Notes: generated by a model from the sequence alone, not told the origin. DNA of 64,000 nucleotides from a virus (IMGVR_UViG_3300003691_000003:14097-78096), one strand, 5' to 3'; numbered from the stretch's first letter, positions 42,087 through 55,201 are shown. Translations and numbers: made by a program.

Positions 42087-42427
42087 GTCATTACCCAGAT
42101 TTCTGGAAAATAGTAGTTTTAAAGATAAAGGACCGGATCGATCACAGAGTTGTAGGCGGATGGTCTGGAGGGTACTTAACTGGCGATAGCTGGAGAATAT
42201 CCTCTGGAATAACAAGTATTGTATCTATAGGTAAGTTCTACGAAGTACATAATACATCAGGTAGCGTGTACTACTGTAGGAAAGATTCAGAGAGGCTAAA
42301 CGCATACACCTCCTCTGTGGTAGAAGGTATGAAAGAGTCCTATGATATAAAGTTCGTAAGTATGGAAGATACCTTACTGGTAGTTAGCAATAGTACCGAG
42401 GATCCCGGAACCGACGATTCCAGCTAG
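42083..42427 (+). CDS. hypothetical protein
   Basis: 114-aa ORF with ATGA overlap. Confidence 0.45.
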   Translation: MSHYPDFWKIVVLKIKDRIDHRVVGGWSGGYLTGDSWRISSGITSIVSIGKFYEVHNTSGSVYYCRKDSERLNAYTSSVVEGMKESYDIKFVSMEDTLLVVSNSTEDPGTDDSS

Positions 42428-42619
42428 GTGCTTTTTCTTCATTAGCTTTGCTTGAGGTATTCTGTTTTTGATAACGTTGTTAGCCAACGTACTACCTACT
42501 TCATAACCACCGGCAGCACCTAAGATACCAGGGCCATAGTCTTTTATGGCCTTGATAACTTTATTAGGTTTCTTTTTAACCTTGGTACTTTCTGCGATTT
42601 TTTCTAGGTATATGTTCAT
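42374..42619 (-). CDS. MNIYLEKIAE-family small basic glycine-zipper protein
   Basis: Starts MNIYLEKIAESTK. Contains GILGAAGGYEVGSTL and GIVGSGILGTIA. Translationally coupled to the upstream family member. Confidence 0.55.
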   Translation of the reverse strand: MNIYLEKIAESTKVKKKPNKVIKAIKDYGPGILGAAGGYEVGSTLANNVIKNRIPQAKLMKKKHLAGIVGSGILGTIANYQ

Positions 42620-42622
42620 TTT

Positions 42623-43054
42623 TTATTTTTTCTTAGAATTCAAGTGTATCTTATCTTTGCCTAAGCTCTTGCCCATGTGGTGTCCTCCATATGTCCCTAG
42701 TGGACCTAAACCTACCAATGTTCCTATTCCAGAACCTACAGCTGCGTTATTAGCTACGGTTTTAAAATTTGCTTTCTGTTTAGCAGTGTAACCTTCTCCA
42801 AGTCTTTTAGGTATCATGGACCCTATGGTGCCTCCCACGACTGCTCCTCCGAGTGCCCCTGATAAGGCAGTTCTTATGCCTTTACCTATGCCTTTACGCC
42901 CATGGGCAATTGCAGATATTACTCCCATACCCCCGCCTATGTTTGCACCATGTGCCCCGCCTTCTGCTGCATGACTCAAAGGTACATCTTTATGGTTAGG
43001 TAATTTAGCCTTAGTCTTCTTAGCTTCTGCGATCTTTTCTAGGTATATGTTCAT
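42623..43054 (-). CDS. MNIYLEKIAE-family basic glycine-zipper protein
   Basis: Starts MNIYLEKIAEAKKTKAK. Gly-rich segments GGAHGANIGGGMGVISAIAHG and GALGGAVVGGTIGS. Confidence 0.55.
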   Translation of the reverse strand: MNIYLEKIAEAKKTKAKLPNHKDVPLSHAAEGGAHGANIGGGMGVISAIAHGRKGIGKGIRTALSGALGGAVVGGTIGSMIPKRLGEGYTAKQKANFKTVANNAAVGSGIGTLVGLGPLGTYGGHHMGKSLGKDKIHLNSKKK

Positions 43055-43137
43055 TTTTTAGTCCGTTTAAGCGAGGTATACGTTCGTAGGTAAATGTCAA
43101 CGTTTGTAAATCTATATTCAAGAGTTTAACACAAAAG

Positions 43138-43162
43138 CGGTATAAGTATATTGAGAGAGACC
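43138..43162 (+). promoter_or_regulatory. extended -10-like promoter copy 12 (CGG variant) ahead of the Cys-protein array
   Basis: CGGTATAAGTATATTGAGAGAGACC. Confidence 0.45.
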
Positions 43163-43193
43163 ACTTATTTTTAATAATCCAAGAGGACAGTTC

Positions 43194-43430
43194 ATGGATA
43201 ATACAACAATTGTACACTTGGTTCACAGAGTTAACTCTAAGAAGCCCAAGGAATGCATATATTGTACAAAGACGGCTGGGGATATATTAAACGAAGGTCA
43301 AAGGTTTTCTCATACTATTGGTGGGTATTACAGCAGGCTAGAAGGTGGTCGTAAAGCAAAGCCATGTTGCACCGTATCAAATAGGTTATTTTCTGGGAGA
43401 GAAGAATGCGAGTATCAGTTCACCTTGTAA
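43194..43430 (+). CDS. HLV-CxxC family member 1
   Basis: IVHLV..CIYC...C..SNRLF. Confidence 0.5.
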   Translation: MDNTTIVHLVHRVNSKKPKECIYCTKTAGDILNEGQRFSHTIGGYYSRLEGGRKAKPCCTVSNRLFSGREECEYQFTL

Positions 43431-43621
43431 CTATAGGTAGCCATCGTTGTCAATTTTGCAACATGGATGCAAATTCCATGGATGTATTCGAGCATCGTAT
43501 AGCGTCCACCATGGATAACTACGAAGAATATGTACATGAGTACGGTAAGGTCTTTATCCCTCACCCATGTACGCCACGAAACTCATCCAATAGAATGTTC
43601 AAGTCTAATAATGGAGAATAA
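43406..43621 (+). CDS. HLV-CxxC family member 2
   Basis: SVHLV..CQFC...C..SNRMF. Confidence 0.5.
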   Translation: MRVSVHLVTIGSHRCQFCNMDANSMDVFEHRIASTMDNYEEYVHEYGKVFIPHPCTPRNSSNRMFKSNNGE

Positions 43622-43622
43622 C

Positions 43623-43877
43623 ATGAAACGTATAAAACTACATCTCCTGAACGGAGATCCTTTCAAGCTAGAGGTAGGCAGCTACTGTGTAAAGTGCAAT
43701 ACGTCCCTGAATGATATCTTAGAAAATGACGAAGATTTCCAATACCTAGAACATAGGTATGAAAGATCTCTGTCTAGTCCTAGCGACTATCGCAGGTGCT
43801 ACAACCCTTCCATTGCTGGTTCAGATCGCTTATTTGGAGAAGGACATGCAAAAGACACGCAGGAAAGAGATAAGTAA
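43623..43877 (+). CDS. HLV-CxxC family member 3
   Basis: KLHLL..CVKC...C..SDRLF. The ATG at 43623 overlaps the upstream TAA. Confidence 0.5.
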   Translation: MKRIKLHLLNGDPFKLEVGSYCVKCNTSLNDILENDEDFQYLEHRYERSLSSPSDYRRCYNPSIAGSDRLFGEGHAKDTQERDK

Positions 43878-44085
43878 AACCGTAATACACCTAGTAACCG
43901 ACGATTCAAACCCTTTCTGTGAAGTGTGCGGAACACATATGACAGATATATGGGATAGTCCGGATCGAATCATACCTGAACCAAAATCATATCGTTTTAA
44001 GCTGAGTAACAGAGGTAGGCACTTCGCCAGCTGCAATCCTCACTCCGTATCCAACTCTGACCACTTATTTGAGAAAGAACTATGA
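43846..44085 (+). CDS. HLV-CxxC family member 4
   Basis: VIHLV..CEVCG...C..SDHLF. Start uncertain (the track shows a longer ORF from 43759). Confidence 0.4.
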   Translation: MQKTRRKEISKTVIHLVTDDSNPFCEVCGTHMTDIWDSPDRIIPEPKSYRFKLSNRGRHFASCNPHSVSNSDHLFEKEL

Positions 44086-44300
44086 GCCCTGAAAAGACAA
44101 TACATGTTTATGAAAGTGATACGTATCTATGTAATCGTTGCGGCATAGATCTAGACAGTACAGAGCATATATTAGAACGATGCGTAAGCGTACAGAGTGC
44201 TGAGATATTTTACGCTAAGGGAGATGGGCATATGTTGTGTTCTGGCCTAAGCAGATCGTCTTACTTATTTAAAAAAAGGGAGAAGATGATATATGACTGA
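44082..44300 (+). CDS. HLV-CxxC family member 5 (divergent)
   Basis: IHVY..CNRCG...C...SSYLF. Confidence 0.45.
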   Translation: MSPEKTIHVYESDTYLCNRCGIDLDSTEHILERCVSVQSAEIFYAKGDGHMLCSGLSRSSYLFKKREKMIYD

Positions 44301-44529
44301 TACACGAATACTCCACCTAGTTAGTAAAGGCGGCAAGTGCTCTAGATGCCATAAGAGTAAACAAGACTTTGAGCCTGACGTAGACGCCCGAACCGGTTCA
44401 GAAGGTTTGTATAAAAAATATGCAACTGGCGAGGAAATATCTGCCTACGGCGTTATCTACTATCCATGCGATGATACAACTGGAAGGGTATTCTCTTCCA
44501 AAGTAAACTTAGAAGGATTCAAGTTATGA
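44293..44529 (+). CDS. HLV-CxxC family member 6
   Basis: ILHLV..CSRC...C..GRVF...NLEGFKL. Confidence 0.5.
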   Translation: MTDTRILHLVSKGGKCSRCHKSKQDFEPDVDARTGSEGLYKKYATGEEISAYGVIYYPCDDTTGRVFSSKVNLEGFKL

Positions 44530-44771
44530 GATCTAATAGAATACTTCATTTAGTTCCTAATAAAGAGGAGCGTAGTTGTAAGGTATGCGGCAAGCATCAA
44601 CGTTTTTTTAACACAGAGAAAGAGTCGGTGGCTTATAACGAAAGGGTTTATAGAGAATTCGTAGTTGAAGGAAAAGCTAAATCGTTTAATCATGTCGAGT
44701 ATACAGCATGCTCTGGTCCAGTTACTAGAATGTTCAATGACGTAGTTAACTTAGAAGGATTCAAACTATGA
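44526..44771 (+). CDS. HLV-CxxC family member 7
   Basis: MRSNRILHLV..CKVCG...C..TRMFNDVVNLEGFKL. Confidence 0.55.
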   Translation: MRSNRILHLVPNKEERSCKVCGKHQRFFNTEKESVAYNERVYREFVVEGKAKSFNHVEYTACSGPVTRMFNDVVNLEGFKL

Positions 44772-45004
44772 GATCTAATAGAATACTTCATTTAGTTCTT
44801 ACAGATGAGCGTAGGTGTGAGATATGTAATAGGTATGTACACACTGTTAATCGTGAAAGAGAATCAGTCACTCGTAACAGCACCTTATACCGAGAGGCAG
44901 TATCCTTGACTAAGTCTTTTAGCACTACTAAGTACATAGTATGTTCAACACCAGTTACTAGAATGTTCAATGACGTAGTTAACTTAGAAGGATTCAAACT
45001 ATGA
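44768..45004 (+). CDS. HLV-CxxC family member 8
   Basis: MRSNRILHLV..CEIC...C..TRMFNDVVNLEGFKL. The N- and C-termini are identical to member 7 and the middle is divergent. Confidence 0.55.
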   Translation: MRSNRILHLVLTDERRCEICNRYVHTVNRERESVTRNSTLYREAVSLTKSFSTTKYIVCSTPVTRMFNDVVNLEGFKL

Positions 45005-45210
45005 GCCTATCAACTGAGACGCCGTCTAGGATATGTCACTTTATGGACAAGGGTAAATGTACCGTGTGCGGAATGGAAACCAAATACCTAATAGCTTTAG
45101 ATGCAGACTTTCTTTTCGCCATCAGCCTACCTACTTACTCTGAAACTTTAAGAAAAGGTAAAGCAGTTGCCTGCGGGTCTAATTCTCATAGGTTATTCAG
45201 TAGTCTGTAA
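45001..45210 (+). CDS. HLV-CxxC family member 9 (divergent)
   Basis: ICHF..CTVCG...C..SHRLF. Confidence 0.45.
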   Translation: MSLSTETPSRICHFMDKGKCTVCGMETKYLIALDADFLFAISLPTYSETLRKGKAVACGSNSHRLFSSL

Positions 45211-45222
45211 CGTGGTAGTTTT

Positions 45223-45247
45223 TGGTATAAGTAATGTGAGGAGGATT
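45223..45247 (+). promoter_or_regulatory. extended -10 promoter copy 13, internal to the array
   Basis: TGGTATAAGTAATGTGAGGAGG. Confidence 0.5.
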
Positions 45248-45249
45248 TT

Positions 45250-45507
45250 ATGGATATACTTAATGAGGTTGAATACACTCTTCATTTACTGGGAAAGACT
45301 GGTAGCAAATGTAAGTTCTGTGGCTTGGATAATAAGGACTTAGTAATCAACGTAAATTACCATCTTTTTACTGGCAGCAAAGATACTTACAGAGTATGCA
45401 TGGCTGCACGCACTAAAGACAATAGTGCAGTTTATTATATTAGCTGTAAGAAAGATTATGGTGGCCTATTTGATTCACCTGTTAACTTAGAAGGATTCAA
45501 ACTATGA
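45250..45507 (+). CDS. HLV-CxxC family member 10
   Basis: LHLL..CKFCG...C...GGLFDSPVNLEGFKL. Preceded by promoter copy 13. Confidence 0.5.
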   Translation: MDILNEVEYTLHLLGKTGSKCKFCGLDNKDLVINVNYHLFTGSKDTYRVCMAARTKDNSAVYYISCKKDYGGLFDSPVNLEGFKL

Positions 45508-45743
45508 CTGCAATATATCGGACATTACATAGGATTGAACAGCCTTATAGTCTAAAGTGCAAACATTGCGGAATGAGAGTTATTGACATGGGGTGGCAGG
45601 ATAGAACCTCTTCTTATCAGTCTGAGTATATGGTCTTACTAAACCCGAAAGGTGACGAGAATACGATAACTAGTTATTCTGCATGCGTAGATATGCATAG
45701 GTTTTTTAAGACGTACGTTAAACTGGCGGGGTTCAAACTATGA
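45504..45743 (+). CDS. HLV-CxxC family member 11
   Basis: LHRI..CKHCG...C..MHRFF...AGFKL. Confidence 0.5.
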   Translation: MTAIYRTLHRIEQPYSLKCKHCGMRVIDMGWQDRTSSYQSEYMVLLNPKGDENTITSYSACVDMHRFFKTYVKLAGFKL

Positions 45744-45982
45744 AGGATATACGTAAGAGACAAATAACAGTTCATCTTGCTAGTAAGAATGCTCCAGATC
45801 AGTGCAAGCTTTGCAGGAAGGTAGTGAGTAGATTTTCTTACACGCATATATGCACGACTGAGATAAGGTTCTATGAAGACAGGTTATCTAATACACACCC
45901 TGATACGGCAACGTATAATGAGTGCAGAAAAATAGGTAGACTGTTTAATGCATATGCAGTGACAAGAGGATTCAAGCTGTGA
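45740..45982 (+). CDS. HLV-CxxC family member 12
   Basis: TVHLA..CKLC...C..IGRLF...RGFKL. Confidence 0.5.
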   Translation: MKDIRKRQITVHLASKNAPDQCKLCRKVVSRFSYTHICTTEIRFYEDRLSNTHPDTATYNECRKIGRLFNAYAVTRGFKL

Positions 45983-46221
45983 CTATACGGCTACTACGGA
46001 ATATAACTCTACATTTCGTAAGGGATGTACAGCACAACTACTGCGACGTTTGCGGAAAGCTGTTTGAAGACTTCTCTATAGATGATAAGTTTACTTCAGA
46101 CGAAGGACACTACGGCGACAGGCTATACCACGTCAAGTTCGATAGTGTAAAGTACGTCTCTTGCAGAATGGAAAGTAGATTATTCAAGGGACATACGGTG
46201 GTAGGAGGATTCAAGCTGTGA
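45979..46221 (+). CDS. HLV-CxxC family member 13
   Basis: GTG start. TLHFV..CDVCG...C..SRLF...GGFKL. Confidence 0.5.
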   Translation: MTIRLLRNITLHFVRDVQHNYCDVCGKLFEDFSIDDKFTSDEGHYGDRLYHVKFDSVKYVSCRMESRLFKGHTVVGGFKL

Positions 46222-46493
46222 CAAAATTAGTAGACAGTCATCGTGTACTTCACTTAACAAATGGAGTAGAACGTATATGTAGGTATTGTGGCAGAGAGGA
46301 TACGAGGGATTATGGACACGCATTCGTAGAGCGCAGGTCTACCTACCAAGATTTCGTGGGCAGGGCTTCAAAGCTTTTCGCAACTAAACCAACATTTTAT
46401 AAATCATGTAAGACGGTGACTCCGTCTGATAGATTATTCGTAAACGGAGAAAGATCATATGGCAACGGAAATAGAGAGAAAGTTCTTAGTTAA
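46218..46493 (+). CDS. HLV-CxxC family member 14
   Basis: GTG start. VLHLT..CRYCG...C..SDRLF. Confidence 0.5.
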   Translation: MTKLVDSHRVLHLTNGVERICRYCGREDTRDYGHAFVERRSTYQDFVGRASKLFATKPTFYKSCKTVTPSDRLFVNGERSYGNGNREKVLS

Positions 46494-46959
46494 AAATAAT
46501 AGTTTTTTACTTAAAGCGGCAATGGCACCTATCAAGATATATCAAGGTTACCTATCAACAGACCCGACTAAGACTATTCGTATTCGCATAACTGAGTGGC
46601 CAGGCAAAGAACCTTTTGCCGAGCTAACTATCAAAGGTATTGGCAACGATAGTGGGACTTCTAGAAAAGAATGGGAAGTACTTATACCTATAGAAGATGC
46701 TCTAGAGATGATTAACTTATGTGATAATGAAATCATAAAGAAGAAAAGGTATTTACTTAGAGAGAAGCGTAGCATGTTCGAGGTAGATGTCTTTGAAGGT
46801 TCATTGGCAGGTTTGGTTATAGCTGAGATAGAACTGGATAGTGAAGATCAGGAAATTGAAAGACCATCTTGGCTAGGTAAAGAAGTTACTGGTCAGATAA
46901 AGTACTACAATTCATTCTTAGCTGAACATCCAACCACCGATCACGGGAGAACATCATGA
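46459..46959 (+). CDS. CYTH-domain protein (triphosphate tunnel metalloenzyme: class IV adenylate cyclase / triphosphatase-like)
   Basis: Begins MATEIERKFLV, the ExExK signature that opens CYTH/CyaB/ThTPase domains. Length 166 aa, with alternating beta-strand-like charged/hydrophobic pattern and an acidic patch EIELDSEDQEIE. Confidence 0.6.
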   Translation: MATEIERKFLVKNNSFLLKAAMAPIKIYQGYLSTDPTKTIRIRITEWPGKEPFAELTIKGIGNDSGTSRKEWEVLIPIEDALEMINLCDNEIIKKKRYLLREKRSMFEVDVFEGSLAGLVIAEIELDSEDQEIERPSWLGKEVTGQIKYYNSFLAEHPTTDHGRTS

Positions 46960-47234
46960 GAGAGAAGATGCAGGTTTACATTCCTCATATTACTCAGAAG
47001 CAATTCGATAGTGAGGATGCAGCTCTTACTCCTAGAGAGGGTAAGTTTTTCATATCTCGTCAACGTTCTATTCAGACGCTCGAAAGAGCTCTAAAGAAAC
47101 ATCCTAAGGAGACTGGGTACATAAAGATATTCGAACTTAGTCTTAAGAAGATAGTAACCATGGATGACATCAATGAAGAGATAAGAGAGGCAAAATGCAA
47201 GACATCACTGAAGAAAAAAAGACTACTCTGGTAA
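46956..47234 (+). CDS. hypothetical protein
   Basis: 92-aa ORF with ATGA overlap. Confidence 0.45.
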   Translation: MREKMQVYIPHITQKQFDSEDAALTPREGKFFISRQRSIQTLERALKKHPKETGYIKIFELSLKKIVTMDDINEEIREAKCKTSLKKKRLLW

Positions 47235-47638
47235 TGATACGTGGACTTCCTGGATCAGGTAAAAGTACTATGGCCCGGAAGCTTGTCGATGAACAGGGCT
47301 ATTGCCATTTCGAGAATGACATGTACCATATCAACGATGGTGTCTACGATTTTGACGTTAATAAGGTCGTAGAAGCTGGGCTGTGGTGTAGAGGAAAGGT
47401 GGAAGAAGAATTAGCCAAAGGTAATAACGTAGTGGTCAGTAATACTTTCATAGAATTCATACACATGTCTTTCTACATCAACCTAATCAGTGATAATGGA
47501 TATAAGCTAGAGATCTTGGAAGCCACCGGCAACTATGGTAGTGTCTACGACGTTCCTGTCCATGTCTTGGCTAGCATGAAGAAGCGTTGGCAAGAGCTGT
47601 CTGACATGAGATCCACTGTAATACACACGGGGTTTTAA
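47195..47638 (+). CDS. P-loop polynucleotide 5'-kinase-like protein (kinase domain only)
   Basis: Walker A MIRGLPGSGKSTMA. The C-terminal VPVHVLASMKKRWQEL resembles the T4 Pnk kinase-domain end VPIDVLRSMYKSMREYL. Its 147-aa length equals the T4 Pnk kinase domain. Confidence 0.55.
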   Translation: MQDITEEKKTTLVMIRGLPGSGKSTMARKLVDEQGYCHFENDMYHINDGVYDFDVNKVVEAGLWCRGKVEEELAKGNNVVVSNTFIEFIHMSFYINLISDNGYKLEILEATGNYGSVYDVPVHVLASMKKRWQELSDMRSTVIHTGF

Positions 47639-47815
47639 ATGAGAGCCAGACGAAGTTCCGACCAAAAGTTGGAAAGACTCAAGAAGCGAAATAATCCTCG
47701 CAATATGCCAGTAGGCCCATTCACCGGTAGATGTAGTTACTGTGAAAGCGATGACCTCTGGGATGATGAAACAATGTATGGCTGCAAGTGTTGTGGCAAA
47801 ATGTACCGTAATTAA
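47639..47815 (+). CDS. small zinc-ribbon ORF
   Basis: 58-aa ORF, not in the track, with CSYC...CKCCG. Confidence 0.35.
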   Translation: MRARRSSDQKLERLKKRNNPRNMPVGPFTGRCSYCESDDLWDDETMYGCKCCGKMYRN

Positions 47816-47828
47816 TAGGAGATAAAAA

Positions 47829-48227: not shown

Positions 48228-48236
48228 TACCCCTAG

Positions 48237-48661: not shown

Positions 48662-48662
48662 T

Positions 48663-48911: not shown

Positions 48912-49108
48912 TCAGCGGGTAATTGGTTGGTTACCAATGAAGAAGTGGGTTGACATCCATATCAAAACTACAGTGGAAAGTATATTCCACCATGACGGGG
49001 CATGAAAGGTATGAAAGCGTGGAGGTGGACTTAGGTCCAGACTAAAACTAGTCTAACCGTTGAAGCGCCCATACCACCCCTCTAATTCGCATAATATAAG
49101 GAACGAAC

Positions 49109-49609
49109 ATGTCAGAGAATATAGAAATTCACGGTAAGCTTATGGAATTTTTAACTAAGGATGACGTTATACGTGATACCGATTTAGTTAGAAGTACAGT
49201 CCAGGATCATTCAGACCATGGAGGCTGGGATACAACTTTCAAAGGCGAAAACTGGTTGGGTACACATTGGCACGCTGCTAGTGAAGAGCTATCTGCTTGG
49301 GTAGGTAGAACATTCCAAGACCTATTGACGTTTAGAGACGAAGGCTATAACGATATGTGCCCTGCAGAAATGGACTACGAAATAGTCCGTGAAGTAACTG
49401 GGCATATCGTAGAATGTGTCGATCATGATCACTGGAAGGTCGAGGGTATCGATGTACGCTATAACAATAGCTCTGGCAATCAGGGTTGGTACGTAGATGA
49501 TGACCCAGATGCTGTGTTCCCTAATACTTTGGATGACTTTCGCATGGCTATAAAAGATGCTATGTATCTATCTAACATGAAGAGGAACGGCAAACATGAC
49601 AGCTTCTAA
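49109..49609 (+). CDS. hypothetical protein
   Basis: 166-aa ORF with an AAGGAA RBS. Confidence 0.5.
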   Translation: MSENIEIHGKLMEFLTKDDVIRDTDLVRSTVQDHSDHGGWDTTFKGENWLGTHWHAASEELSAWVGRTFQDLLTFRDEGYNDMCPAEMDYEIVREVTGHIVECVDHDHWKVEGIDVRYNNSSGNQGWYVDDDPDAVFPNTLDDFRMAIKDAMYLSNMKRNGKHDSF

Positions 49610-49931
49610 TCCAGTATTCACTAAAGCAGTTAAGGTTATAGGTGGCCTACACGCAACTTTCGTATTTGAAAATCAGAAAGACGTAGACCAATGGCTTACT
49701 ACTCGTAACAAAGATGGGTATGCTAGGCTTGACGACGTATATGGAAACTTATCATTCACTCAACGTAATTTAGATGGTTTAAAGATCGGAGATAAATGCT
49801 ACGCTGTAGGCGAAGGCGATGAAGTGTTTGAGATAATAAACATGGTTAAGTACTCACGACATAGATATGGTTTTGGCCTAGCTGGTCATGGCATGGAAGA
49901 TGTAGGGAAGTGCTATAAATCATTAACTTAA
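49596..49931 (+). CDS. hypothetical protein
   Basis: 111-aa ORF. Confidence 0.45.
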   Translation: MTASNPVFTKAVKVIGGLHATFVFENQKDVDQWLTTRNKDGYARLDDVYGNLSFTQRNLDGLKIGDKCYAVGEGDEVFEIINMVKYSRHRYGFGLAGHGMEDVGKCYKSLT

Positions 49932-49949
49932 ATAATCTAGGAGATTATC

Positions 49950-50432
49950 ATGGAACAAGAGCAACTCGAAAAAATCAAAGAGCGCTTAATTGTAGCCTTA
50001 GATGAAAGTAAAAGATATATGGAAATGGACGTAGAGTATTTCGAAGCTAATGTTCTAGGCTCCGAGGATGCAAAGCTTAAGTACGCAATGTCACAGGCTG
50101 AGTTCGTTGTTATAGCTACGGAATATAAACCAAGCTTCTTCCAAGAAGTGCAACCTCTATTCAGCGATATGCTTAAAGGCATGGATGCTATGTTCGATAC
50201 TGACGATGAGGTAATCATAGAGGAAGCCGCTAGGTTATCCACTGAAGGATTACGCCTACTATACCCACTCCAATTAAAACTATTTAAAGAAATACTAGGT
50301 GAGGAGTATGATCTGTCTTGGCTAGAGGACATAGATGCTATCATTGATAGGTACACGCCCGTTATTAAACGTAATCTTAGAATGGAATTAAAAAAGGAGA
50401 GTAATAGTGAAGACGATGCAACAATTGATTGA
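49950..50432 (+). CDS. hypothetical acidic protein
   Basis: 160-aa ORF with an AGGAGA RBS. Confidence 0.5.
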   Translation: MEQEQLEKIKERLIVALDESKRYMEMDVEYFEANVLGSEDAKLKYAMSQAEFVVIATEYKPSFFQEVQPLFSDMLKGMDAMFDTDDEVIIEEAARLSTEGLRLLYPLQLKLFKEILGEEYDLSWLEDIDAIIDRYTPVIKRNLRMELKKESNSEDDATID

Positions 50433-50841
50433 TAAACCAATCGAGGGTAACTGCTTTGATGGCAGAGACCTAAACAGACTGATAGGCTTTATGACCACAG
50501 AGCAAGTAAAGGCTTCTGGCATAGATCTCAAATATGACTACGTTCATACGCAGTCTAAAGAGTTCACCGAAGAAGCAGTTCTAGAGCAACTTAAGAAAGA
50601 CGTGGAGTTTGGCTTTGAAAAGGCTTTGAACAAGCGTGGCTTATCCGCAGGATTAATGGTGGACGTGGTTACCATGTGGAACCGTATCTTAGAAAATGGA
50701 CTGGAAGGTCTCAGTGATACTAGCTACGCTCAATATGGATTACCTGTGTTCAAGGCTACTGCTGTGAAGTATGGTTTCGATAATCCAATCGGAAAAGACG
50801 TAGGTGATGAGTACAAGTACTCGGCTGATTTTGGGTATTGA
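50407..50841 (+). CDS. hypothetical protein
   Basis: 144-aa ORF. Confidence 0.45.
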   Translation: MKTMQQLIDKPIEGNCFDGRDLNRLIGFMTTEQVKASGIDLKYDYVHTQSKEFTEEAVLEQLKKDVEFGFEKALNKRGLSAGLMVDVVTMWNRILENGLEGLSDTSYAQYGLPVFKATAVKYGFDNPIGKDVGDEYKYSADFGY

Positions 50842-50844
50842 TGA

Positions 50845-51024
50845 ATGAGAGCTAGAAGAGAACTAACCGTAGAGGGTGTAACTAAGTCTTTGATAGAATG
50901 GTCTGAGTTAAGTGGAATACGTAACCGGACCATAGCGTTTAGAATAGATAGTGGCTGGGAACCTAAGCGTGCTATAACAGAACGTGCGGTCCAAGGTAAC
51001 AACCAACGCTTAAGAACTGCGTAA
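50845..51024 (+). CDS. small helix-turn-helix DNA-binding protein
   Basis: 59-aa ORF, not in the track. VEGVTKSLIEWSELSGIRNRTIAFRIDSGWEPKRAI fits the G.T.SL.EWS...GI...TI..R...GW HTH pattern. A terminator follows. Confidence 0.4.
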   Translation: MRARRELTVEGVTKSLIEWSELSGIRNRTIAFRIDSGWEPKRAITERAVQGNNQRLRTA

Positions 51025-51047
51025 TGCTACTCTTGGAGTAGAAAGTC

Positions 51048-51072
51048 AGGGGTCTAGTAACCCCTTTCTTTT
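51048..51072. terminator. bidirectional terminator with the conserved CCCCTTTCTTTTAGC flank
   Basis: AGGGGT-ctagta-ACCCCT then TTCTTTT. Lies between the convergent + small HTH gene and the - MNVYLEKIAE gene. Confidence 0.6.
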
Positions 51073-51631
51073 AGCTCTCAGATAACTTCTTTAACTTACG
51101 CCTAGCTTGAGCAGCTTTGCGCTTATCGTATCTCTCTTTCGATGATTTTTTCTTGGAGTTTATATATGAACCCACTAACGCTCCTGTCGTCACCCCAGCT
51201 CCTAGACCAGTCTTAAGTGCAGCTTTAGCAGCGTAATTACCCAGCTTTCCTCTTACTACTTTAGCTCGTCTATCTCGGTAAGTTTGAAAGGACTTAATAG
51301 TGGCGTCATGTGGTGAAAGCCCATGTTTACGACTAAGGCGTTCTGCTCGTACCATAACGTCCCTAGGGATAGTACCCTGATTAGTCTTTACCATCTTCTT
51401 AGACTTCATAGCTGCGCTACTTGCAGCTTCATTGGTAAACATTTCTTCACTATATCTCTTAAAACCGACTGTCCCACCTACGTAACCACCGACGAGTGCA
51501 CCAGTCCTTACAGGATGCATCTTTTCATGATCCGGTGTTTTCATTCTCTTGTCAATGTAGCTACTGTATCTACTCCGCAAGCTTTTCTTTTTACCCTTAG
51601 CTTCTGCGATTTTTTCTAAGTATACGTTCAT
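51071..51631 (-). CDS. MNIYLEKIAE-family basic glycine-zipper protein
   Basis: Starts MNVYLEKIAEAKGKKKSLRS. Contains GALVGGYVGGTVG and GLGAGVTTGALVGSY. Confidence 0.55.
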   Translation of the reverse strand: MNVYLEKIAEAKGKKKSLRSRYSSYIDKRMKTPDHEKMHPVRTGALVGGYVGGTVGFKRYSEEMFTNEAASSAAMKSKKMVKTNQGTIPRDVMVRAERLSRKHGLSPHDATIKSFQTYRDRRAKVVRGKLGNYAAKAALKTGLGAGVTTGALVGSYINSKKKSSKERYDKRKAAQARRKLKKLSES

Positions 51632-51633
51632 TC

Positions 51634-52530
51634 TTAGTTACCTTTCTTCTGATGTTTAGTGTATACCTTATCGGCTATTTTCTTAGTTACGTGCAAAGCT
51701 CCGCCTTTGGCTGCTGCAGAAGTGACGTACGTACCCATTGCCGCTGCTAATCCTGGAACAGCTTTGAGCATTTTCTTCTTACCTAAATGTTTTTTCATCT
51801 TGCGTAAGGCATGAGTATTTGCATAACCCTCGTCTGCCAATGTAGGTAACTGAGATGCTAGAGCCACTGCTTGAGACCTATCCCTAGTTTTTTGATTCTT
51901 ACTATATATGCCAAGGGCTGCTACGCCACCTACGTTAGAGGACATGCCCCTAGCACGAGTCATAGCCTTCCCTATATATTTTTTGTTATGTAGTTTAGCG
52001 TGACCCTGTTCATGTAGTAGGGCGCCAATGTCCCCATTCCCCCCTCCAGATATAACACCTTTGCGGGATATGCCCTTAGTTTTGGGGATGTACATCGGAC
52101 TATGTCCTACTGTCACATTAAGAGCACCGGCATTGATTTGCCTAAGACGGCTTACTGCCTTTCTGTAATTCTTACCCAACGTAGCATTAGCAAAAGGTAG
52201 TCTAGTCCTACTCTTGACAGGGGTGATTATCTTATCTGCTCTTCTACTACCTGCTTCAGAGTTACCTGATATCGACGTAACCTTACCCACTAACTTGTCT
52301 TCTTTCATGGATTTCTTGTACGCAGACAATTCTTTTTTAGAATACTTGTTGCTACCCCTATCCATCTCTTTATTCATCTTGTTGTGTAAGGCTTTGTTGG
52401 CAACCCCGGCTGCGCCACCTATTATGGTTGATGGGACAAACGCCTTAACGAAGGTCTCGCCTATATGATACTTTCGCTTATCTTTCTTCTTACTCTTAGC
52501 TTCTGCGATTTTTTCCAAGTATATGTTCAT
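51634..52530 (-). CDS. MNIYLEKIAE-family basic glycine-zipper protein (largest member)
   Basis: Starts MNIYLEKIAEAKSKKKDKRKY. Contains IIGGAAGVANKA, GGGNGDIGALLHEQGHAKLH and LAAAMGTYVTSAAAKGG. Confidence 0.55.
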   Translation of the reverse strand: MNIYLEKIAEAKSKKKDKRKYHIGETFVKAFVPSTIIGGAAGVANKALHNKMNKEMDRGSNKYSKKELSAYKKSMKEDKLVGKVTSISGNSEAGSRRADKIITPVKSRTRLPFANATLGKNYRKAVSRLRQINAGALNVTVGHSPMYIPKTKGISRKGVISGGGNGDIGALLHEQGHAKLHNKKYIGKAMTRARGMSSNVGGVAALGIYSKNQKTRDRSQAVALASQLPTLADEGYANTHALRKMKKHLGKKKMLKAVPGLAAAMGTYVTSAAAKGGALHVTKKIADKVYTKHQKKGN

Positions 52531-52532
52531 TG

Positions 52533-52922
52533 TTACTTATCCTTACGGGCCTTCAGGGCTTTATATGATTCGTAGGCTGTCCCGGCTGCTGCTGCTCCAA
52601 GGGCTGCTCCCTTAAGGACTCTACCTTTGGATTGTTTGAGTCTATTCTCTAATGCCTCTCCATACTTAACTTTTTTTTTCAATTTCTTGAAATGGTCGTT
52701 GGGGCTTTTGCGGTTAAAAACGTTCCAAGTCTTATCGTTGTACTCTCGATGCTTTGTATGCAGGATATCTGCCTTACGTACAGACTTGGCAGTTTTCTTA
52801 TCATAGGTCATAGCTACGCCTGTTGCCGCTCCACCTGCGGTAGCAACTGCTGCCGTTTCTGTAGCTCGTCTAGCCTTACTCTTAGCTTCTGCGATTTTTT
52901 CTAAGTATACATTTGTAGTCAT
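52533..52922 (-). CDS. MNIYLEKIAE-family basic protein
   Basis: MTTNVYLEKIAEAKSKARR. An upstream in-frame ATG at 52958 exists, but family conservation favours the start at 52922. Contains VATAGGAATGVAMT and GAALGAAAAGTAYESY. Confidence 0.5.
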   Translation of the reverse strand: MTTNVYLEKIAEAKSKARRATETAAVATAGGAATGVAMTYDKKTAKSVRKADILHTKHREYNDKTWNVFNRKSPNDHFKKLKKKVKYGEALENRLKQSKGRVLKGAALGAAAAGTAYESYKALKARKDK

Positions 52923-53005
52923 TTGGTAAGTCTCGTTAGGGTTATTAGTCGTATTCAATGAAAGTATTTTAGCACGAGAATTCCCTCAATAACAACTGGC
53001 GGACT

Positions 53006-53030
53006 TGGTATAAGTATTATGTAGAGAAAC
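53006..53030 (+). promoter_or_regulatory. extended -10 promoter copy 15 (the consensus itself)
   Basis: TGGTATAAGTATTATGTAGAGAAAC. Confidence 0.55.
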
Positions 53031-53055
53031 TTAACCAGTCTGAGGAGACAATATT

Positions 53056-53292
53056 ATGGATACACCACACGTTACCCCTGTTCTTGACGGAGAAAAAATT
53101 ATACGTCAAACACGGAACGGCAATTATATGGTATGTATAGTAGGATACGAAGACGTAGATGACCCCTACCTTAAGCCATTCGTATCGGTTCATCATGTGA
53201 GTGAAAACCCACGTGATAGAATGACATTTAAAAATATCAAGGACGCTAACGCATTTGCAGATGTCCAGAATAAAATAGATATAACTTTCTGA
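53056..53292 (+). CDS. hypothetical protein
   Basis: Promoter copy 15, GAGGAG RBS, 78-aa ORF. Confidence 0.45.
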   Translation: MDTPHVTPVLDGEKIIRQTRNGNYMVCIVGYEDVDDPYLKPFVSVHHVSENPRDRMTFKNIKDANAFADVQNKIDITF

Positions 53293-53302
53293 GGAGACAA
53301 CT

Positions 53303-53569
53303 ATGAGTAACGACAAGCTACTAACCAATGTACAGATTACGAACCTAATAGCTGAATGGGAAGGACTCAAGGAAACAGCTTGGGATATGGATACTTTCCT
53401 AAAAGTAGTGAAAGAGCATCTAATTAACACGGGCTATCCCGAGCTAGAGAAACTGCTAGTCAGAGAAGCTAATAAGTACGATGATGTTATAAACGACTTC
53501 GAAGACTACCTGTTCTCAAATATAGTAGAAGGTACAAAAACAAGAGGAGACAACCATGAACAACGATAA
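53303..53569 (+). CDS. hypothetical protein, tandem paralog 1
   Basis: MSNDKLLTNVQ... parallels MNNDKILTKVQ... of the next ORF. Confidence 0.45.
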   Translation: MSNDKLLTNVQITNLIAEWEGLKETAWDMDTFLKVVKEHLINTGYPELEKLLVREANKYDDVINDFEDYLFSNIVEGTKTRGDNHEQR

Positions 53570-53825
53570 AATATTAACCAAGGTACAAGCGGACAACTTT
53601 CGACGTGCGTGGGAAAAACAACAGAGAGCCGTCAGTGGGTTAGAGGATATGCTGGATATACTTATTGAGCAATCTGAGCAAGCGGGGTATCACCGTCTAG
53701 CTGGCTTAGCGATAAGCAGGAAAGAGCACTGCATGACATCCACTGAAGAATTCCACGAATTCCTATATGAAAATATAATGGATTGTGCGTGGGAAAGAGA
53801 CGAAGTTAATAACTCTAGGATATAG
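53556..53825 (+). CDS. hypothetical protein, tandem paralog 2
   Basis: Paralog of 53303..53569. Confidence 0.45.
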   Translation: MNNDKILTKVQADNFRRAWEKQQRAVSGLEDMLDILIEQSEQAGYHRLAGLAISRKEHCMTSTEEFHEFLYENIMDCAWERDEVNNSRI

Positions 53826-53830
53826 AAGGC

Positions 53831-53856
53831 AGGGCTAACAACCCTTTCTTTTAGCT
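53831..53856. terminator. terminator-like hairpin with the CCCTTTCTTTTAGC flank between convergent genes
   Basis: AGGG-ctaacaa-CCCT then TTCTTTTAGC. The stem is short. Confidence 0.35.
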
Positions 53857-54702
53857 AGGCATTACATGTACGTAAGTCCACGGGTCGTGCTTATTACTCT
53901 TGGATGCATTATCAGGCCCCGTCAATGGTTGTAGATTGTAATGTACGTGTAACCCACATACTAACTTCCCCATTAATGGTACTATATGATCGTTTTGAAA
54001 AGCTATGCCGGTTAGCTCAGATAGGTCAGAAGTTTCCTGGTACACAGCTGTGGTCTTCTTAGAATCAAACCAAGGAGGAGTCGCATGCTTCTTAGTAGCT
54101 CTTCGTTTTGCCCAATGTGCCCGCATCTGAGGCCTATGAGTATCTCTGTACCGCTTATAGACAAGCAATCGTTCAGGTTTGGTACGGAGATAATAATCTC
54201 TTTGTTCAATTTTTATTCTCTCTCGGTTAGCTTCTCGGTATTTAATAACTCTAGTGCGTATCTTCTCCTTATTGGCAAGACGGTACTTTTTATCTCTTAT
54301 GCGTATCTTCTCCTTATTAGTATCTCTATACCTCTGCTGCTGCTCGTCCATCCTCTCCTTGTTAGCTGCTCGGTACGCCCTGTAAGTCTCATGCTTAGAT
54401 TCTTGGTAGTTAGCGAAGTGTTCTGGGCCCTTTGCACGTTCAGCTTCGAGTTTTTTTAATTCGTTAGCCCTTCTAATAGAGTTGATGTAATCCTTATTTT
54501 TAGCATGATGCTCCCGTGCCCGTTTACGCATCCTCTCTGGATCTTCAAGCCTGGCCATTCTTCGAGACTCATTCATGCAAGTAACACATCGGGTATTATC
54601 CACTCTGCGTTCGACAACGTGTCCATGCTTACACGGCCCACCAGTAAAGTATGTCTTGAGGCCCTGCTCTTTTGCTTCTTTTCTTAGTATTATCGTTTTC
54701 AT
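53851..54702 (-). CDS. HNH endonuclease with an internal Lys/Arg-rich repeat region (putative homing endonuclease)
   Basis: N-terminal zinc-binding GGPCKHGH...CVTC. Four ~15-aa repeats NKE(K/R)I.....YR.A. The C-terminal NDHIVPLMGKLVCGLHVHYNLQPLTGPDNASKSNK is paralogous to the HNH core of 20509..21162. Confidence 0.6.
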   Translation of the reverse strand: MKTIILRKEAKEQGLKTYFTGGPCKHGHVVERRVDNTRCVTCMNESRRMARLEDPERMRKRAREHHAKNKDYINSIRRANELKKLEAERAKGPEHFANYQESKHETYRAYRAANKERMDEQQQRYRDTNKEKIRIRDKKYRLANKEKIRTRVIKYREANRERIKIEQRDYYLRTKPERLLVYKRYRDTHRPQMRAHWAKRRATKKHATPPWFDSKKTTAVYQETSDLSELTGIAFQNDHIVPLMGKLVCGLHVHYNLQPLTGPDNASKSNKHDPWTYVHVMPS

Positions 54703-54868
54703 GTCACGTATTACAACATAACAGACCAGCCCCAGTCAACGGACTATAGTCACGGACCATTTATTAGATAATAATCCAAGTCTCAATTCACGGGGAAAGC
54801 CGCCCCAGACCCTTATAGTGATCCAAATCAGAGAATACTAACGAATACTAGCCACTATAGTGATCTAC

Positions 54869-55201
54869 TTATTTCTTCTCATCCCGCTTAGACCATTTCT
54901 TTTCTATCGCATGCACATCCTTACGCCATTTGTTGTTCTTCTTAGCAGAACTATACCCTGACCCTGCACCTACTATACCACCGATAACTCCGGCAGCTGC
55001 AGATACTTTCTTGGATCTACCAGCTAATACTCGGGCTGCGGCTGTCGTGGCTATTCCCGCTACAGCTCCAGCTTTGGCAGCTTGTCCCTTTGGGCTTTGA
55101 TTTTTCGACTTATCAAATTTACCAGGATCAGGATAATCGTCACTATCCGAGGTTAAATCATATTTAGATTTTGCTATTTTCTCTAGATATATGTTCTTCA
55201 T
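54869..55201 (-). CDS. MNIYLEKIAE-family protein (divergent)
   Basis: Starts MKNIYLEKIAKSKYD. Contains GAVAGIATTAAARVLAG and AAAGVIGGIVGAGSGY glycine zippers. Confidence 0.5.
   Translation of the reverse strand: MKNIYLEKIAKSKYDLTSDSDDYPDPGKFDKSKNQSPKGQAAKAGAVAGIATTAAARVLAGRSKKVSAAAGVIGGIVGAGSGYSSAKKNNKWRKDVHAIEKKWSKRDEKK

What the first reader, a model, noticed from the sequence alone, without database searches (positions are those of the whole stretch)
42374..55201. Family of at least 8 basic glycine-zipper proteins sharing an N-terminus that mimics the T4 capsid-targeting sequence (MNIYLEKIAE|AK vs T4 IP MKTYQEFIAE|A)
Seven minus-strand ORFs begin with an almost invariant MN(I/V)YLEKIAEAK(K/S)KK:
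- 33193..33378, 42374..42619, 42623..43054, 51071..51631, 51634..52530, 52533..52922, 54869..55201.

The first ~40 nt are conserved at the DNA level (ATGAACATATACCTAGAAAAAATCGCAGAAGCTAAG). The bodies are unrelated in sequence but alike in composition: Lys/Arg-rich stretches alternating with Gly/Ala zipper segments such as GALVGGYVGGTVG and AGIATTAAARVLAG.

The shared N-terminus matches the T4 internal-protein capsid-targeting sequence position by position (M-x-x-Y-x-E-x-I-A-E-A). It ends in I-A-E, the (L/I)xE consensus cleaved by the T4 gp21 prohead protease.

The likeliest reading is a set of internal head proteins. They would be targeted into the procapsid by a cleavable N-terminal signal and co-packaged with the DNA. 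The basic regions suggest DNA binding. The glycine zippers suggest membrane activity on injection. Members lie in translationally coupled tandem groups.

The 33379..33882 protein and the basic 32236..32637 protein have the same composition but lack the signal.
Basis: partly seen in the sequence, partly recalled or inferred. Interest (0 to 1): 0.7.

Follow-up and report, generated by a model that had tools for sequence, protein, structure and literature searches.

The report
Portable capsid-cargo tag on phage proteins
Seven otherwise unrelated small proteins of an uncultured large phage begin with the same eight-residue tag (N-x-Y-L-E-K-I-A), which comparative evidence suggests is this lineage's counterpart of the phage T4 capsid-targeting sequence: a portable label, matched to the phage's own head-maturation protease, that marks proteins for loading into the capsid.

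Summary
Seven minus-strand ORFs (not eight) begin M-(x)-N-[IV]-Y-L-[EQ]-K-I-A. Their bodies are unrelated and mostly basic with glycine zippers. Conservation starts at the ATG and acts on the peptide.

The window comes from an uncultured relative of Salmonella phage Arash, a myovirus lineage that packages its RNA polymerase. The same tag, near-invariant in 40 distinct instances, heads, joins or ends many proteins in other Arash-like metagenomic phages. It clusters around the head-maturation protease gene and is grafted onto varied cargo: Gly-zipper proteins, HExxH proteins, an SNF2 helicase, a GNAT.

So the capsid-targeting reading is supported. The proposed T4-type cut after I-A-E is not: Glu follows the tag in only 40% of instances. 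Cleavage after the invariant Ala is more likely but inferred. No proteomics exists for any tag-bearing phage.

The parts
33193..33378 (-). Tag protein A, 61 aa, MNIYLQKIAEAK...; acidic body (pI 5.3), no Gly-zipper. Tag N2-A9 = 33352-33375.
   Evidence: Its ATG directly follows, in frame, the TAG stop of 33379-33882.
33379..33882 (-). Basic (pI 10.7) double Gly-zipper protein, 167 aa. No YLEKIA tag, but its N-terminus MIIKSAS fits the generic h-x-K-x-A motif.
32236..32637 (-). Very basic protein (pI 11.1), 133 aa. N-terminus MKNTITKEAM fits the generic h-x-K-x-A motif. No clear Gly-zipper.
42374..42619 (-). Tag protein B, 81 aa, MNIYLEKIAEST...; basic, two Gly-zipper segments. Tag = 42593-42616.
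42623..43054 (-). Tag protein C, 143 aa, MNIYLEKIAEAKK...; 22% Gly, pI 10.4. Tag = 43028-43051.
51071..51631 (-). Tag protein D, 186 aa, MNVYLEKIAEAKG...; pI 10.6, Gly-zippers near both ends. Tag = 51605-51628.
   Evidence: (Gly-zipper_Omp below cut-off)
51634..52530 (-). Tag protein E, 298 aa, MNIYLEKIAEAKS...; HExxH...E (H173, E174, H177, E234) putative Zn-peptidase-like core bracketed by Gly-zipper helices. Tag = 52504-52527.
   Evidence: It has 86 remote homologues, 18 of 87 proteins carry the same tag, and many others carry variant h-x-K-x-A N-termini.
52533..52922 (-). Tag protein F, 129 aa from the ATG (a TTG start at 52958 is possible), MTTNVYLEKIAEAKS...; pI 10.3. Tag = 52890-52913.
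54869..55201 (-). Tag protein G, 110 aa, MKNIYLEKIAKSK...; Lys replaces the Glu after the tag; pI 10.0, Gly/Ala zippers. Tag = 55172-55195.

Best explanation
The shared N-terminus is a portable peptide tag with core N-x-Y-L-E-K-I-A. It marks proteins as cargo of the procapsid in a subset of Arash-like phages. These are large myoviruses that, judging from the cultured member Arash, package their own RNA polymerase.

The tag is an extended, high-information version of a short motif, h-x-K-x-A (h = L/M/I/V/F). That motif flanks the domains of the lineage's own head-maturation protease, which has the gp21/assemblin fold. A related form of it is frequent in the scaffold-like and other head-module proteins.

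Proposed mechanism (inferred):
1. During procapsid assembly the tag docks the cargo to the protease/scaffold core.
2. The activated protease then cuts at the tag, most probably right after the invariant Ala (YLEKIA|EAK...). This releases the mature basic protein inside the head.
3. The protein is kept with the DNA and probably ejected into the host.

In this window the cargo set is seven tagged proteins: five basic double-glycine-zipper proteins, one HExxH peptidase-like protein that also has zippers, and one small acidic protein. Two or three neighbours carry a degenerate N-terminal version of the motif.

Shown here:
- The tag, its modularity and its peptide-level conservation.
- The protease gene and the fold of its model.
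- The motif statistics.
- The virion abundance of tag-less counterparts in Arash.

Inferred:
- Packaging of these particular proteins.
- The docking partner.
- The scissile bond.
- Ejection and any membrane or DNA activity.
For: (1) Seven ORFs share the tag while their bodies are unrelated. Codon changes are 50 synonymous: 32 non-synonymous inside the tag, against 22: 171 just after it.

(2) The same tag occurs in other viral contigs that share the Arash head module: L072-L076, L015, and this phage's own L079. There it clusters around the protease gene on the same strand. In 40 distinct N-terminal instances N, Y, L and K are invariant, with E 39/40, I 36/40 and A 38/40.

(3) The tag is modular.
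- The L015 orthologue of the Arash gp217 SNF2 helicase has gained it (MNNRYLEKIARSEVKEHQSRV versus MPEYQLRDHQSRV).
- It also sits between a GNAT or helicase domain and a Gly-zipper module, at fused module junctions without a nearby Met, and at the C-terminus of a Gly-zipper protein in this phage's head module (...NKYLERIAQNRNNDQ*).
- HExxH homologues carry lineage-specific N-terminal variants such as YLEKIA, GFEKxA and ELTKIA.

(4) The protease.
- P0047 sits on a 78,096-bp contig, as does window protein P0001.
- In 119 homologues three h-x-K-x-A sites are near-invariant: before the catalytic domain, right after it, and at about residue 385. The residue after Ala is variable, and in the model each site borders a disordered linker.

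(5) A stricter form of the motif, h-[EDTQN]-K-x-A-[SA], is enriched only in head-module proteins: Arash 20 observed vs 2.7 expected, L079 7 vs 0.2, L072 14 vs 0.5, D69 13 vs 0.8. The looser h-x-K-x-A gives 302 vs 73.

(6) In the window, all 10 ORFs with h-x-K-x-A in their first 14 residues are on the minus strand. That is 10 of 24 minus-strand ORFs against 0 of 96 plus-strand ORFs. It is the strand of the portal, RNAP and tail-fibre genes. The plus-strand neighbours have their own sigma70-like extended -10 promoters.

(7) Experimental anchor.
- In sucrose-gradient-purified Arash, the basic Gly/Ala-rich proteins gp95/96/97/100 are encoded outside the head module. They give 406/816/1060/471 spectra, against 1333 for the major capsid protein. 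gp224 gives 222 and the gp217 helicase 1148 (PMC10585845).
- gp96 is homologous to a tagged L075 protein (E 5e-18).

(8) T4 precedent. The first 10 residues of IPIII suffice for head targeting, with residues 4 and 7 serving targeting and 8 and 10 serving processing (PMC9026906). The tag shares Y4, E6, I8 and A9 with MKTYQEFIAE.

(9) A hybrid leader, MRNYLEFIAEA, heads a DarB-like protein next to a 'DNA ejection protein' in L034.
Against: - There is no proteomic or genetic data for any tag-bearing phage. Arash, the only relative with virion mass spectrometry, lacks the tag.
- The Arash MS lists 116 proteins with near-complete coverage. It therefore includes contaminants or unprocessed forms and shows no propeptide removal.
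- In this window the tagged genes lie in a hyperplastic region of small genes, not in the head module.
- The Gly-zipper segments, and the weak Zn_peptidase_2 similarity seen in some homologues of protein E, would also suit membrane proteins that are never packaged.
- Part of the motif enrichment comes from scaffold repeats in which LEKAAA starts a repeated helical unit. Enrichment alone therefore does not prove cleavage.
- No docking partner is identified.
- A shared late-promoter motif linking the islands to structural genes is only borderline.
Confidence: 0.6

Rival explanations
1. One reading: a T4-type capsid-targeting sequence cut after Glu10 (I-A-E|A) by a Glu-specific gp21-like protease, giving mature N-termini AK...
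For: Six of seven window copies have I-A-E, and five have I-A-E-A. The T4 gp21 consensus is (L/I)-x-E, and the T4 CTS is MKTYQEFIAE|A. The closest structural match of the protease model is T4 gp21.
Against: Only 16 of 40 distinct tag instances have Glu after YLEKIA, and window copy G has Lys. The three conserved sites in the protease and the head-wide motif have invariant Lys and Ala but no conserved Glu in a P1-like position. E-A-K in the window copies may simply reflect their recent common origin.
Confidence: 0.15
2. The proteins are small phage membrane proteins, for example for superinfection exclusion, lysis timing or envelope remodelling. The tag would be a cytoplasmic N-terminal helix for oligomerisation or membrane targeting, unrelated to capsids.
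For: They have small-xxx-small zipper helices. Pfam Gly-zipper families give weak hits. The HExxH family resembles membrane Zn_peptidase_2 in 5 of 56 members. In L015 the tagged genes follow a holin/endolysin/spanin-like cassette. In the window they lie among small accessory genes.
Against: The zipper segments are only weakly hydrophobic (best 19-residue Kyte-Doolittle mean 0.8-1.45). The tag also sits on a soluble SNF2 helicase whose Arash orthologue is one of the most abundant virion proteins. It clusters next to protease and scaffold genes. It matches the motif at the protease's own domain borders. Arash counterparts are abundant in particles.
Confidence: 0.15
3. The motif is only a protease cleavage site or a favoured helix start, with no targeting role. 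The proteins enter the head by other means, or the N-terminal nonapeptide is simply trimmed.
For: The generic h-x-K-x-A motif is widespread in scaffold repeats and at linkers. In the AF2 model of protein E the tag is a short helix.
Against: The tag conserves extra positions (invariant N at -2 and Y) beyond the generic motif, over bodies with no similarity. Removing 9 residues has no obvious purpose unless the propeptide does something first, as in T4. The tag is position-independent: N-terminal, internal or C-terminal.
Confidence: 0.07
4. A relic of recent gene duplication or recombination, or a nucleotide-level element such as a translation-initiation region, with no protein-level function.
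For: Three copies are nearly identical over 36 nt. The genes lie in tandem groups.
Against: The excess of synonymous changes inside the tag contrasts with saturated change immediately after it. There is no upstream conservation. The same peptide is encoded by different codons in phages whose core proteins are only 42-50% identical. The tag also occurs internally and at a C-terminus.
Confidence: 0.03

Closest known systems
Phage T4 capsid-targeting sequence (CTS) of internal proteins IPI/IPII/IPIII and Alt, processed by prohead protease gp21
   Same: A roughly 10-residue N-terminal peptide shared by otherwise unrelated, often small basic proteins of one phage. The Tyr lies at position 4 and I-A at positions 8-9 (Y-x-E-x-I-A shared). 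The phage encodes a protease of the same fold. Cargo genes are scattered and fast-evolving. Cargo includes enzymes.
   Different: The consensus differs (N-x-Y-L-E-K-I-A versus MKTYQEFIAE). T4's targeting residue F7 is Lys here. The Glu needed for gp21 cleavage is not conserved. The associated motif is h-x-K-x-A. The tag also works from internal and C-terminal positions. The host phage is not T4-like: its major capsid protein is HK97-type, it has multisubunit RNAP genes, and in Arash the RNAP is packaged. The cargo is dominated by double glycine-zipper proteins.
phiKZ / 201phi2-1 / SPN3US ejection (inner-body) proteins processed by gp175/gp245
   Same: Large phages with multisubunit RNAP and many internal head proteins. 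They have paralogue families with conserved N-termini and a gp21-fold protease that also cleaves itself.
   Different: Those propeptides are mostly 110-250 residues long and are cut after (S/A/G)-x-E. Here the tag is 8-11 residues long and has a different motif.
Herpesvirus assemblin and its release/maturation sites (e.g. YLQA|T and VQA|S; PMC4498786)
   Different: Here the conserved positions are hydrophobic at P5 and Lys at P3. Cleavage is not demonstrated. In herpesviruses these sites are not used as tags on unrelated cargo.
Encapsulin cargo-loading peptides and the HK97 protease C-terminal capsid-targeting tail (recalled from general knowledge, not tested here)
   Same: Short terminal peptides that are sufficient to load cargo into an HK97-fold shell. 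They can be moved between proteins.
   Different: Unrelated sequences, usually C-terminal, and not coupled to a cleavage motif.
Phage P1 Dar internal head proteins (DarB)
   Same: Enzymes packaged in the head and injected. A DarB-like protein in contig L034 carries a hybrid leader, MRNYLEFIAEA.
   Different: P1 Dar proteins are not known to use this tag (my knowledge). L034 is a different, unclassified phage.

Membership tests
T4-type CTS-bearing internal head proteins | A short N-terminal peptide shared by otherwise unrelated proteins of the same phage | tested here: met
   Seven ORFs share the tag; bodies are unrelated at E > 0.8
T4-type CTS-bearing internal head proteins | Sequence MKTY[QKN]EFIAE followed by Ala | tested here: not met
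   Only Y4, E6, I8 and A9 are shared lineage-wide. Position 7 is Lys, not Phe. Glu10 is present in 16 of 40 instances
T4-type CTS-bearing internal head proteins | Removal of the peptide by the prohead protease after (L/I)-x-E | not testable with these tools
   The site is present in 6 of 7 window copies but absent in 60% of the family. The protease-linked motif is h-x-K-x-A
T4-type CTS-bearing internal head proteins | A gp21-fold prohead protease encoded by the same phage | tested here: met
T4-type CTS-bearing internal head proteins | Proteins present inside mature heads and ejected | not testable with these tools
   Indirect only: tag-less counterparts gp95/96/97/100/224 and helicase gp217 are abundant in Arash virion MS
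T4-type CTS-bearing internal head proteins | A T4-superfamily phage (gp23-type capsid, gp22 core) | tested here: not met
   The closest relatives are Arash and Vibrio phages D69/D181/D148. The Arash major capsid protein hits only HK97-type Phage_capsid, and weakly
phiKZ/SPN3US-type ejection proteins | Long N-terminal propeptides cut after (S/A/G)-x-E | tested here: not met
   The tag is 8-11 residues long and has no conserved x-E site
Assemblin-type protease-scaffold processing | Assemblin/gp21 fold with conserved sites flanking the protease domain | tested here: met
Assemblin-type protease-scaffold processing | Cleavage after Ala at those sites | not testable with these tools
   Inferred from where invariance ends, at Ala
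Pfam glycine-zipper families (PF13488, PF13441, PF05433) | A score above the curated cut-off | tested here: not met
   Best is 19.3 bits against a cut-off of 25, for 51071-51631. The others have no hit
HExxH zinc metallopeptidase (for 51634-52530) | HExxH plus a downstream Glu ligand, a recognisable peptidase family or fold | tested here: inconclusive
   H173, E174, H177 and E234 are invariant in 56 homologues. Pfam Zn_peptidase_2 hits only 5 members, weakly, and not the window protein. The model has no significant PDB match

The most novel reading that the evidence does not exclude
The tag and the generic h-x-K-x-A motif together form a previously unrecognised cargo-loading code. It would be used by several uncultured phage lineages, each with its own 'dialect' (YLEKIA, GFEKxA, ELTKIA...). 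In this code, cargo is recruited into procapsids by presenting an extended copy of the maturation protease's own substrate motif. The cargo is then released by an assemblin-like cut after Ala. The main cargo, double glycine-zipper basic proteins plus enzymes such as an HExxH peptidase, an SNF2 helicase, a GNAT and a DarB-like protein, would be ejected with the DNA to act on the host envelope and host defences.
Probability: 0.3. Interest if true: 0.8.

Novelty: new variant of a known kind. Interest (0 to 1): 0.62.

Why it matters
Capsid-targeting peptides are well characterised essentially only in T4. How large phages that package RNA polymerases and many other proteins choose their cargo is an open question.

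Here a very short, almost invariant and position-independent tag can be read directly from sequence. It occurs in a large uncultured clade: more than 1,100 homologues of its protease exist in public data. It comes with a candidate recognition motif for the protease and a catalogue of cargo. That makes three things directly testable:
- which proteins these phages inject;
- what specificity this branch of the gp21/assemblin protease family has;
- whether an 8-residue tag can be used to load foreign proteins into such capsids.

It also flags a class of abundant virion proteins, the basic double glycine-zipper proteins, whose function is unknown.

Tried and rejected
- Nucleotide search of deposited phages with the region: no match.
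- tblastn of the 298-aa member and of tagged homologues against deposited phages: nothing, or only Arash. No cultured tag-bearing phage was found.
- The strict back-translated leader starting at ATG-AAY found nothing in IMG/VR. A looser YLEKIAEA pattern was needed.
- The word-indexed search of the 298-aa protein found only itself. The exhaustive HMMER search was needed to find 86 remote homologues.
- A census of tagged proteins with a tag profile failed.
- I first took ATACTTATACC upstream of four islands for their promoter. It is the reverse complement of an extended -10 promoter, TGGTATAAGTAT, that drives the divergent plus-strand genes at a fixed 35-45 nt from their start codons.
- A second candidate, TGTGTTAAA(C/A)TA, is only borderline: 3 exact copies, no enrichment at 2 mismatches, found in 7 of 9 upstream regions against at most 6 in random sets.
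- PHROGs and Pfam give nothing significant for the tagged proteins.
- The AF2 model of the HExxH protein has no significant PDB match.
- An ADP-ribosyltransferase-like reading of the VYHGTS motif in Arash gp96 and its L075 homologue got no Pfam support.
- The N-terminal ILRKEA of the HNH-like endonuclease 53851-54702 is probably chance, because that N-terminus belongs to a conserved domain (phrog_1081).
- Sequence search of the protease against PDB sequences found nothing. Fold comparison was required.

Full report
**1. What is in the sequence**

The other clusters it finds in the window are small groups of similar neighbouring ORFs. Neither a regex scan nor a PSSM scan of all six frames finds an eighth copy.

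Upstream DNA is unrelated. Similarity starts at the ATG and stops after about 11-12 codons. Inside the tag, pairwise codon differences are 50 synonymous to 32 non-synonymous. In the next ten codons they are 22 to 171. The conserved object is therefore a peptide, not a nucleotide element. Only three copies match the quoted 36-mer within 3 mismatches.

- Member 52533-52922 carries the tag two residues further in.

After the tag, the bodies have no significant mutual similarity. Six are basic (pI 10.0-10.6). They share an architecture: tag, Lys-rich stretch, a small-xxx-small zipper, a variable middle, a second zipper, and a basic tail. The zippers are only weakly hydrophobic. The seventh, 33193-33378, is acidic and has no zipper.

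**2. What genome this is**

The window is phage DNA with 40% G+C. It encodes a 1506-aa RNAP beta-like protein, a portal, tail-fibre proteins, helicases and a primase. No deposited phage is close at the DNA level.

At the protein level the nearest relatives are Salmonella phage Arash (portal about 50% identical) and Vibrio phages D69, D181 and D148. Window positions 1-27.5 kb are syntenic with Arash 103.8-134.7 kb. The remaining 36 kb, where all tagged genes lie, has no Arash counterpart.

In that part the plus strand carries small genes, each preceded at a fixed distance by an extended -10-like promoter, TGGTATAAGTAT. The tagged genes sit in small islands on the other strand, which is the strand of the portal, RNAP and fibre genes.

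Arash is described as an orphan myovirus. Its sucrose-gradient-purified particles contain RNAP beta and beta-prime and many other proteins (PMC10585845).

**3. The tag outside the window**

Scanning IMG/VR for back-translated YLEKIAEA found the same peptide at the start of Gly-zipper proteins in several contigs. Local BLAST shows these contigs to be Arash-like.
- L021/L072 carries homologues of Arash gp218-gp225.
- L015 carries homologues of gp12-gp15 and of the gp217 helicase.

Fetching head modules through the gp222 homologue gave more. L072, L073, L074, L075 and L076 each have 2-6 tagged genes around the protease gene, on the same strand. L077, Arash and the D69 head-module region (L078) have none, or only degenerate forms.

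From 40 distinct N-terminal instances the logo is M-(x)-N(40)-[K/I/R/V]-Y(40)-L(40)-E(39)-K(40)-I(36)-A(38). The next residue is variable: E16, K7, G6, A5, Q2, L2, V1.

The tag is modular.
- The L015 orthologue of helicase gp217 has it as an add-on of about 10 residues that Arash lacks.
- It links helicase or GNAT domains to Gly-zipper modules in single reading frames.
- It occurs at junctions with no nearby Met.
- In this phage's own head module it sits at the C-terminus of a basic Gly-zipper protein (L079).

The 298-aa window protein has 86 remote homologues with invariant HExxH...E. Counting the window protein itself, 18 of the 87 proteins carry the YLEKIA tag. Many of the rest begin with variants such as GFEKQAKKK, FDELTKIA or ELIKVA. 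The cargo is the same and the address label differs from homologue to homologue.

**4. The protease and the generic motif**

The 531-aa neighbour of the tagged genes in L021 matches 'head maturation protease' (phrog_18299, E 4e-8). It is 42% identical to Arash gp222.

L079, a 6-kb contig with 40% G+C from the same sample, shows P0047 within this phage's head module.

In 119 aligned homologues three short sites are near-invariant:
- L29-x-K31-x-A33, before the catalytic domain.
- L217-x-K219-V-A221, immediately after it (PADxTSS-vLQKVA-S/N/Y).
- V385-E-K387-R-A389.

In the model each site abuts a disordered linker, and the residue after Ala varies. This is the layout expected of autoprocessing sites. 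It resembles the release and maturation sites of herpesvirus protease-scaffold precursors (YLQA|T, VQA|S; PMC4498786).

A stricter form of the motif, h-[EDTQN]-K-x-A-[SA], is enriched only in head-module proteins.

| Source | Observed | Expected from shuffles |
|---|---|---|
| Arash | 20 | 2.7 |
| L079 | 7 | 0.2 |
| L072 | 14 | 0.5 |
| D69 | 13 | 0.8 |

With only K-x-A fixed, P5 is L/M (3.7x / 5.3x), P4 is E (3.9x) and P1' is S or A (2.7x / 1.6x).

The tag Y-L-E-K-I-A-x fits this motif exactly and adds invariant N and Y.

In the window, all 10 ORFs with h-x-K-x-A in their first 14 residues are on the minus strand (10 of 24, against 0 of 96 on the plus strand). Two control windows further into the proteins give 1 ORF each. 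The ten include the two 'signal-less' basic proteins: MIIKSAS (33379-33882) and MKNTITKEAM (32236-32637).

**5. Experimental anchor**

Arash has an analogous island outside its structural modules: gp95c-gp97c and gp100c. These proteins are basic (pI 10.3-11.2) and Gly/Ala-rich. Two of them have N-termini that fit the motif (MSLHKLAK and MEKQAS).

| Arash protein | Spectra in virion MS |
|---|---|
| gp95 | 406 |
| gp96 | 816 |
| gp97 | 1060 |
| gp100 | 471 |
| major capsid protein | 1333 |
| gp224 (Gly-zipper, head module) | 222 |
| gp217 (helicase) | 1148 |

gp96 is homologous to a tagged L075 protein (E 5e-18). This class of protein is therefore an abundant particle component in a cultured relative. 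There are caveats. That proteome lists 116 proteins with near-complete coverage, so it is not clean. It also gives no evidence of N-terminal trimming.

**6. Comparison with T4**

The recalled T4 sequence was verified on data: MKTY[QKN]EFIAEA starts 2-3 unrelated proteins per locus in ~170-kb contigs. According to the T4 review, the first 10 residues of IPIII suffice for head targeting. Residues 4 and 7 matter for targeting and 8 and 10 for processing. Asp at position 10 blocks cleavage but not targeting (PMC9026906).

The present tag shares Y4, E6, I8 and A9. It has Lys for F7 and lacks a conserved Glu10. It works like a CTS but is not a member of the T4 CTS family, and the phage is not T4-like.

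A hybrid leader, MRNYLEFIAEA, on a DarB-like protein in L034 hints at a continuum between the two.

**7. Mechanism and rivals**

Best-supported reading (confidence about 0.6): the tag is a portable docking and recognition peptide for the procapsid core and protease. The tagged proteins are head-internal cargo.

A cut at the tag is likely. This step is an inference.

Rivals:
- The exact T4-type cleavage (0.15).
- Unpackaged small membrane proteins (0.15). This rival is kept alive by the zippers and the Zn_peptidase_2 hint.
- A cleavage site with no targeting role (0.07).
- A duplication relic or nucleotide-level element (0.03).

What the glycine zippers and basic regions do is unknown. Candidates are membrane insertion on ejection, or DNA or charge interactions in the head.

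**8. Novelty**

No paper in the searchable library mentions this tag or glycine-zipper head or ejection proteins. Capsid-targeting propeptides and gp21-fold proteases are known kinds. New here are the tag itself, its position independence, the h-x-K-x-A motif tied to the protease, the cargo class and the phage clade. Hence: a new variant of a known kind.

Noticed in passing
window, GGTATAAGTAT on the + strand starting at 6930, 14285, 15644, 28951, 32681, 33965, 34629, 43139, 45224, 48238, 53007, 57706, 58316: A family of at least 13 near-identical extended -10-like promoters, TGGTATAAGTAT, often with (T)CAATAA near -35. Most lie about 35-45 nt upstream of the SD and ATG of a plus-strand small gene. 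All nine exact copies have the same orientation, against about 0 expected.
   Followed up: partly
window 43194-46493 (+): A tandem array of about 12 small paralogous genes (69-91 aa). They carry CxxC-type motifs and most share the C-terminus ...NLEGFKL. Several are translationally coupled by ATGA overlaps.
   Followed up: no
window 36819-38086 (+): Three small ORFs share an N-terminal (F/Y)K(W/Q)YRKWRGG(C/Y)W motif.
   Followed up: no
window 8168-8833 and 8838-9494 (-): Two adjacent ~220-aa paralogues with near-identical N-termini (MATGLL[DN]S[SA]GADLDTILAPINGATPISNVGIQDTAGNDIA), next to the tail-fibre gene 9496-11304.
   Followed up: no
window 56300-57900: An ORF-poor stretch with no tRNA and no Rfam match. 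It contains iteron-like repeats: an exact 30-nt repeat spaced 82 nt apart (57765 and 57847), direct and inverted copies of GTACGTTTNTTGTACAAAT (57086-57296), and 70-nt inverted arms at 56794-56863 and 56986-57055. It may be an origin or a regulatory region.
   Followed up: partly
L079 ~aa 5-20 of the partial gp218-like protein (same phage, outside the window): The gp218-like structural protein of this phage contains KAYLLEKIAEDVDL, where the L021 orthologue has KAFVRTRVRDDSEL. This tag-like internal segment could be chance or a mimic of the tag.
   Followed up: no
L034 10107-12023 (+): A 639-aa DarB-like protein (phrog_10089, E 2e-27) starts MRNYLEFIAEA, a hybrid between the T4 CTS and the YLEKIA tag. 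A 'DNA ejection protein' homologue lies in the same locus.
   Followed up: partly
L015 6637-10512 (+): Five tag copies within 4 kb, directly after a holin/SLT-endolysin/spanin-like cassette. One copy heads an SNF2 helicase. Two are in frame behind helicase and GNAT domains with no intervening stop, which suggests polyprotein-like fusions.
   Followed up: partly
window 33379-33381 / 33378 and 42623-42625 / 42619: The stop codon of the upstream Gly-zipper gene is followed in frame by the ATG of the next tagged gene (TAG-ATG; TAA-AAA-ATG). Stop-codon readthrough would give module-tag-module fusions like those seen as single ORFs in L075/L076.
   Followed up: no
Arash gp96c (L002 5250-5927, -) and L075 7090-7755: The conserved motif LLGY(H/D)xV(Y/H)HGTS in an abundant virion protein recalls H-G-S/T motifs of ADP-ribosyltransferase/Tpt1-type enzymes (from memory). 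It has no Pfam support.
   Followed up: partly
window 53851-54702 (-): An HNH / endonuclease-VII-like gene (phrog_26577, phrog_1081, phrog_1035) sits between the tag-gene islands on the same strand. Its N-terminal ILRKEA fits h-x-K-x-A but is probably coincidental.
   Followed up: partly
L078 26960-27415 (Vibrio phage D69): A cultured relative has one degenerate tag, MDNVDTLLEKIAAKSKKPRKKK..., and a small protein, MDKVAKLKSIAKGLATAGAGG..., between the RNAP beta and beta-prime genes. D69 may be a usable experimental system.
   Followed up: no
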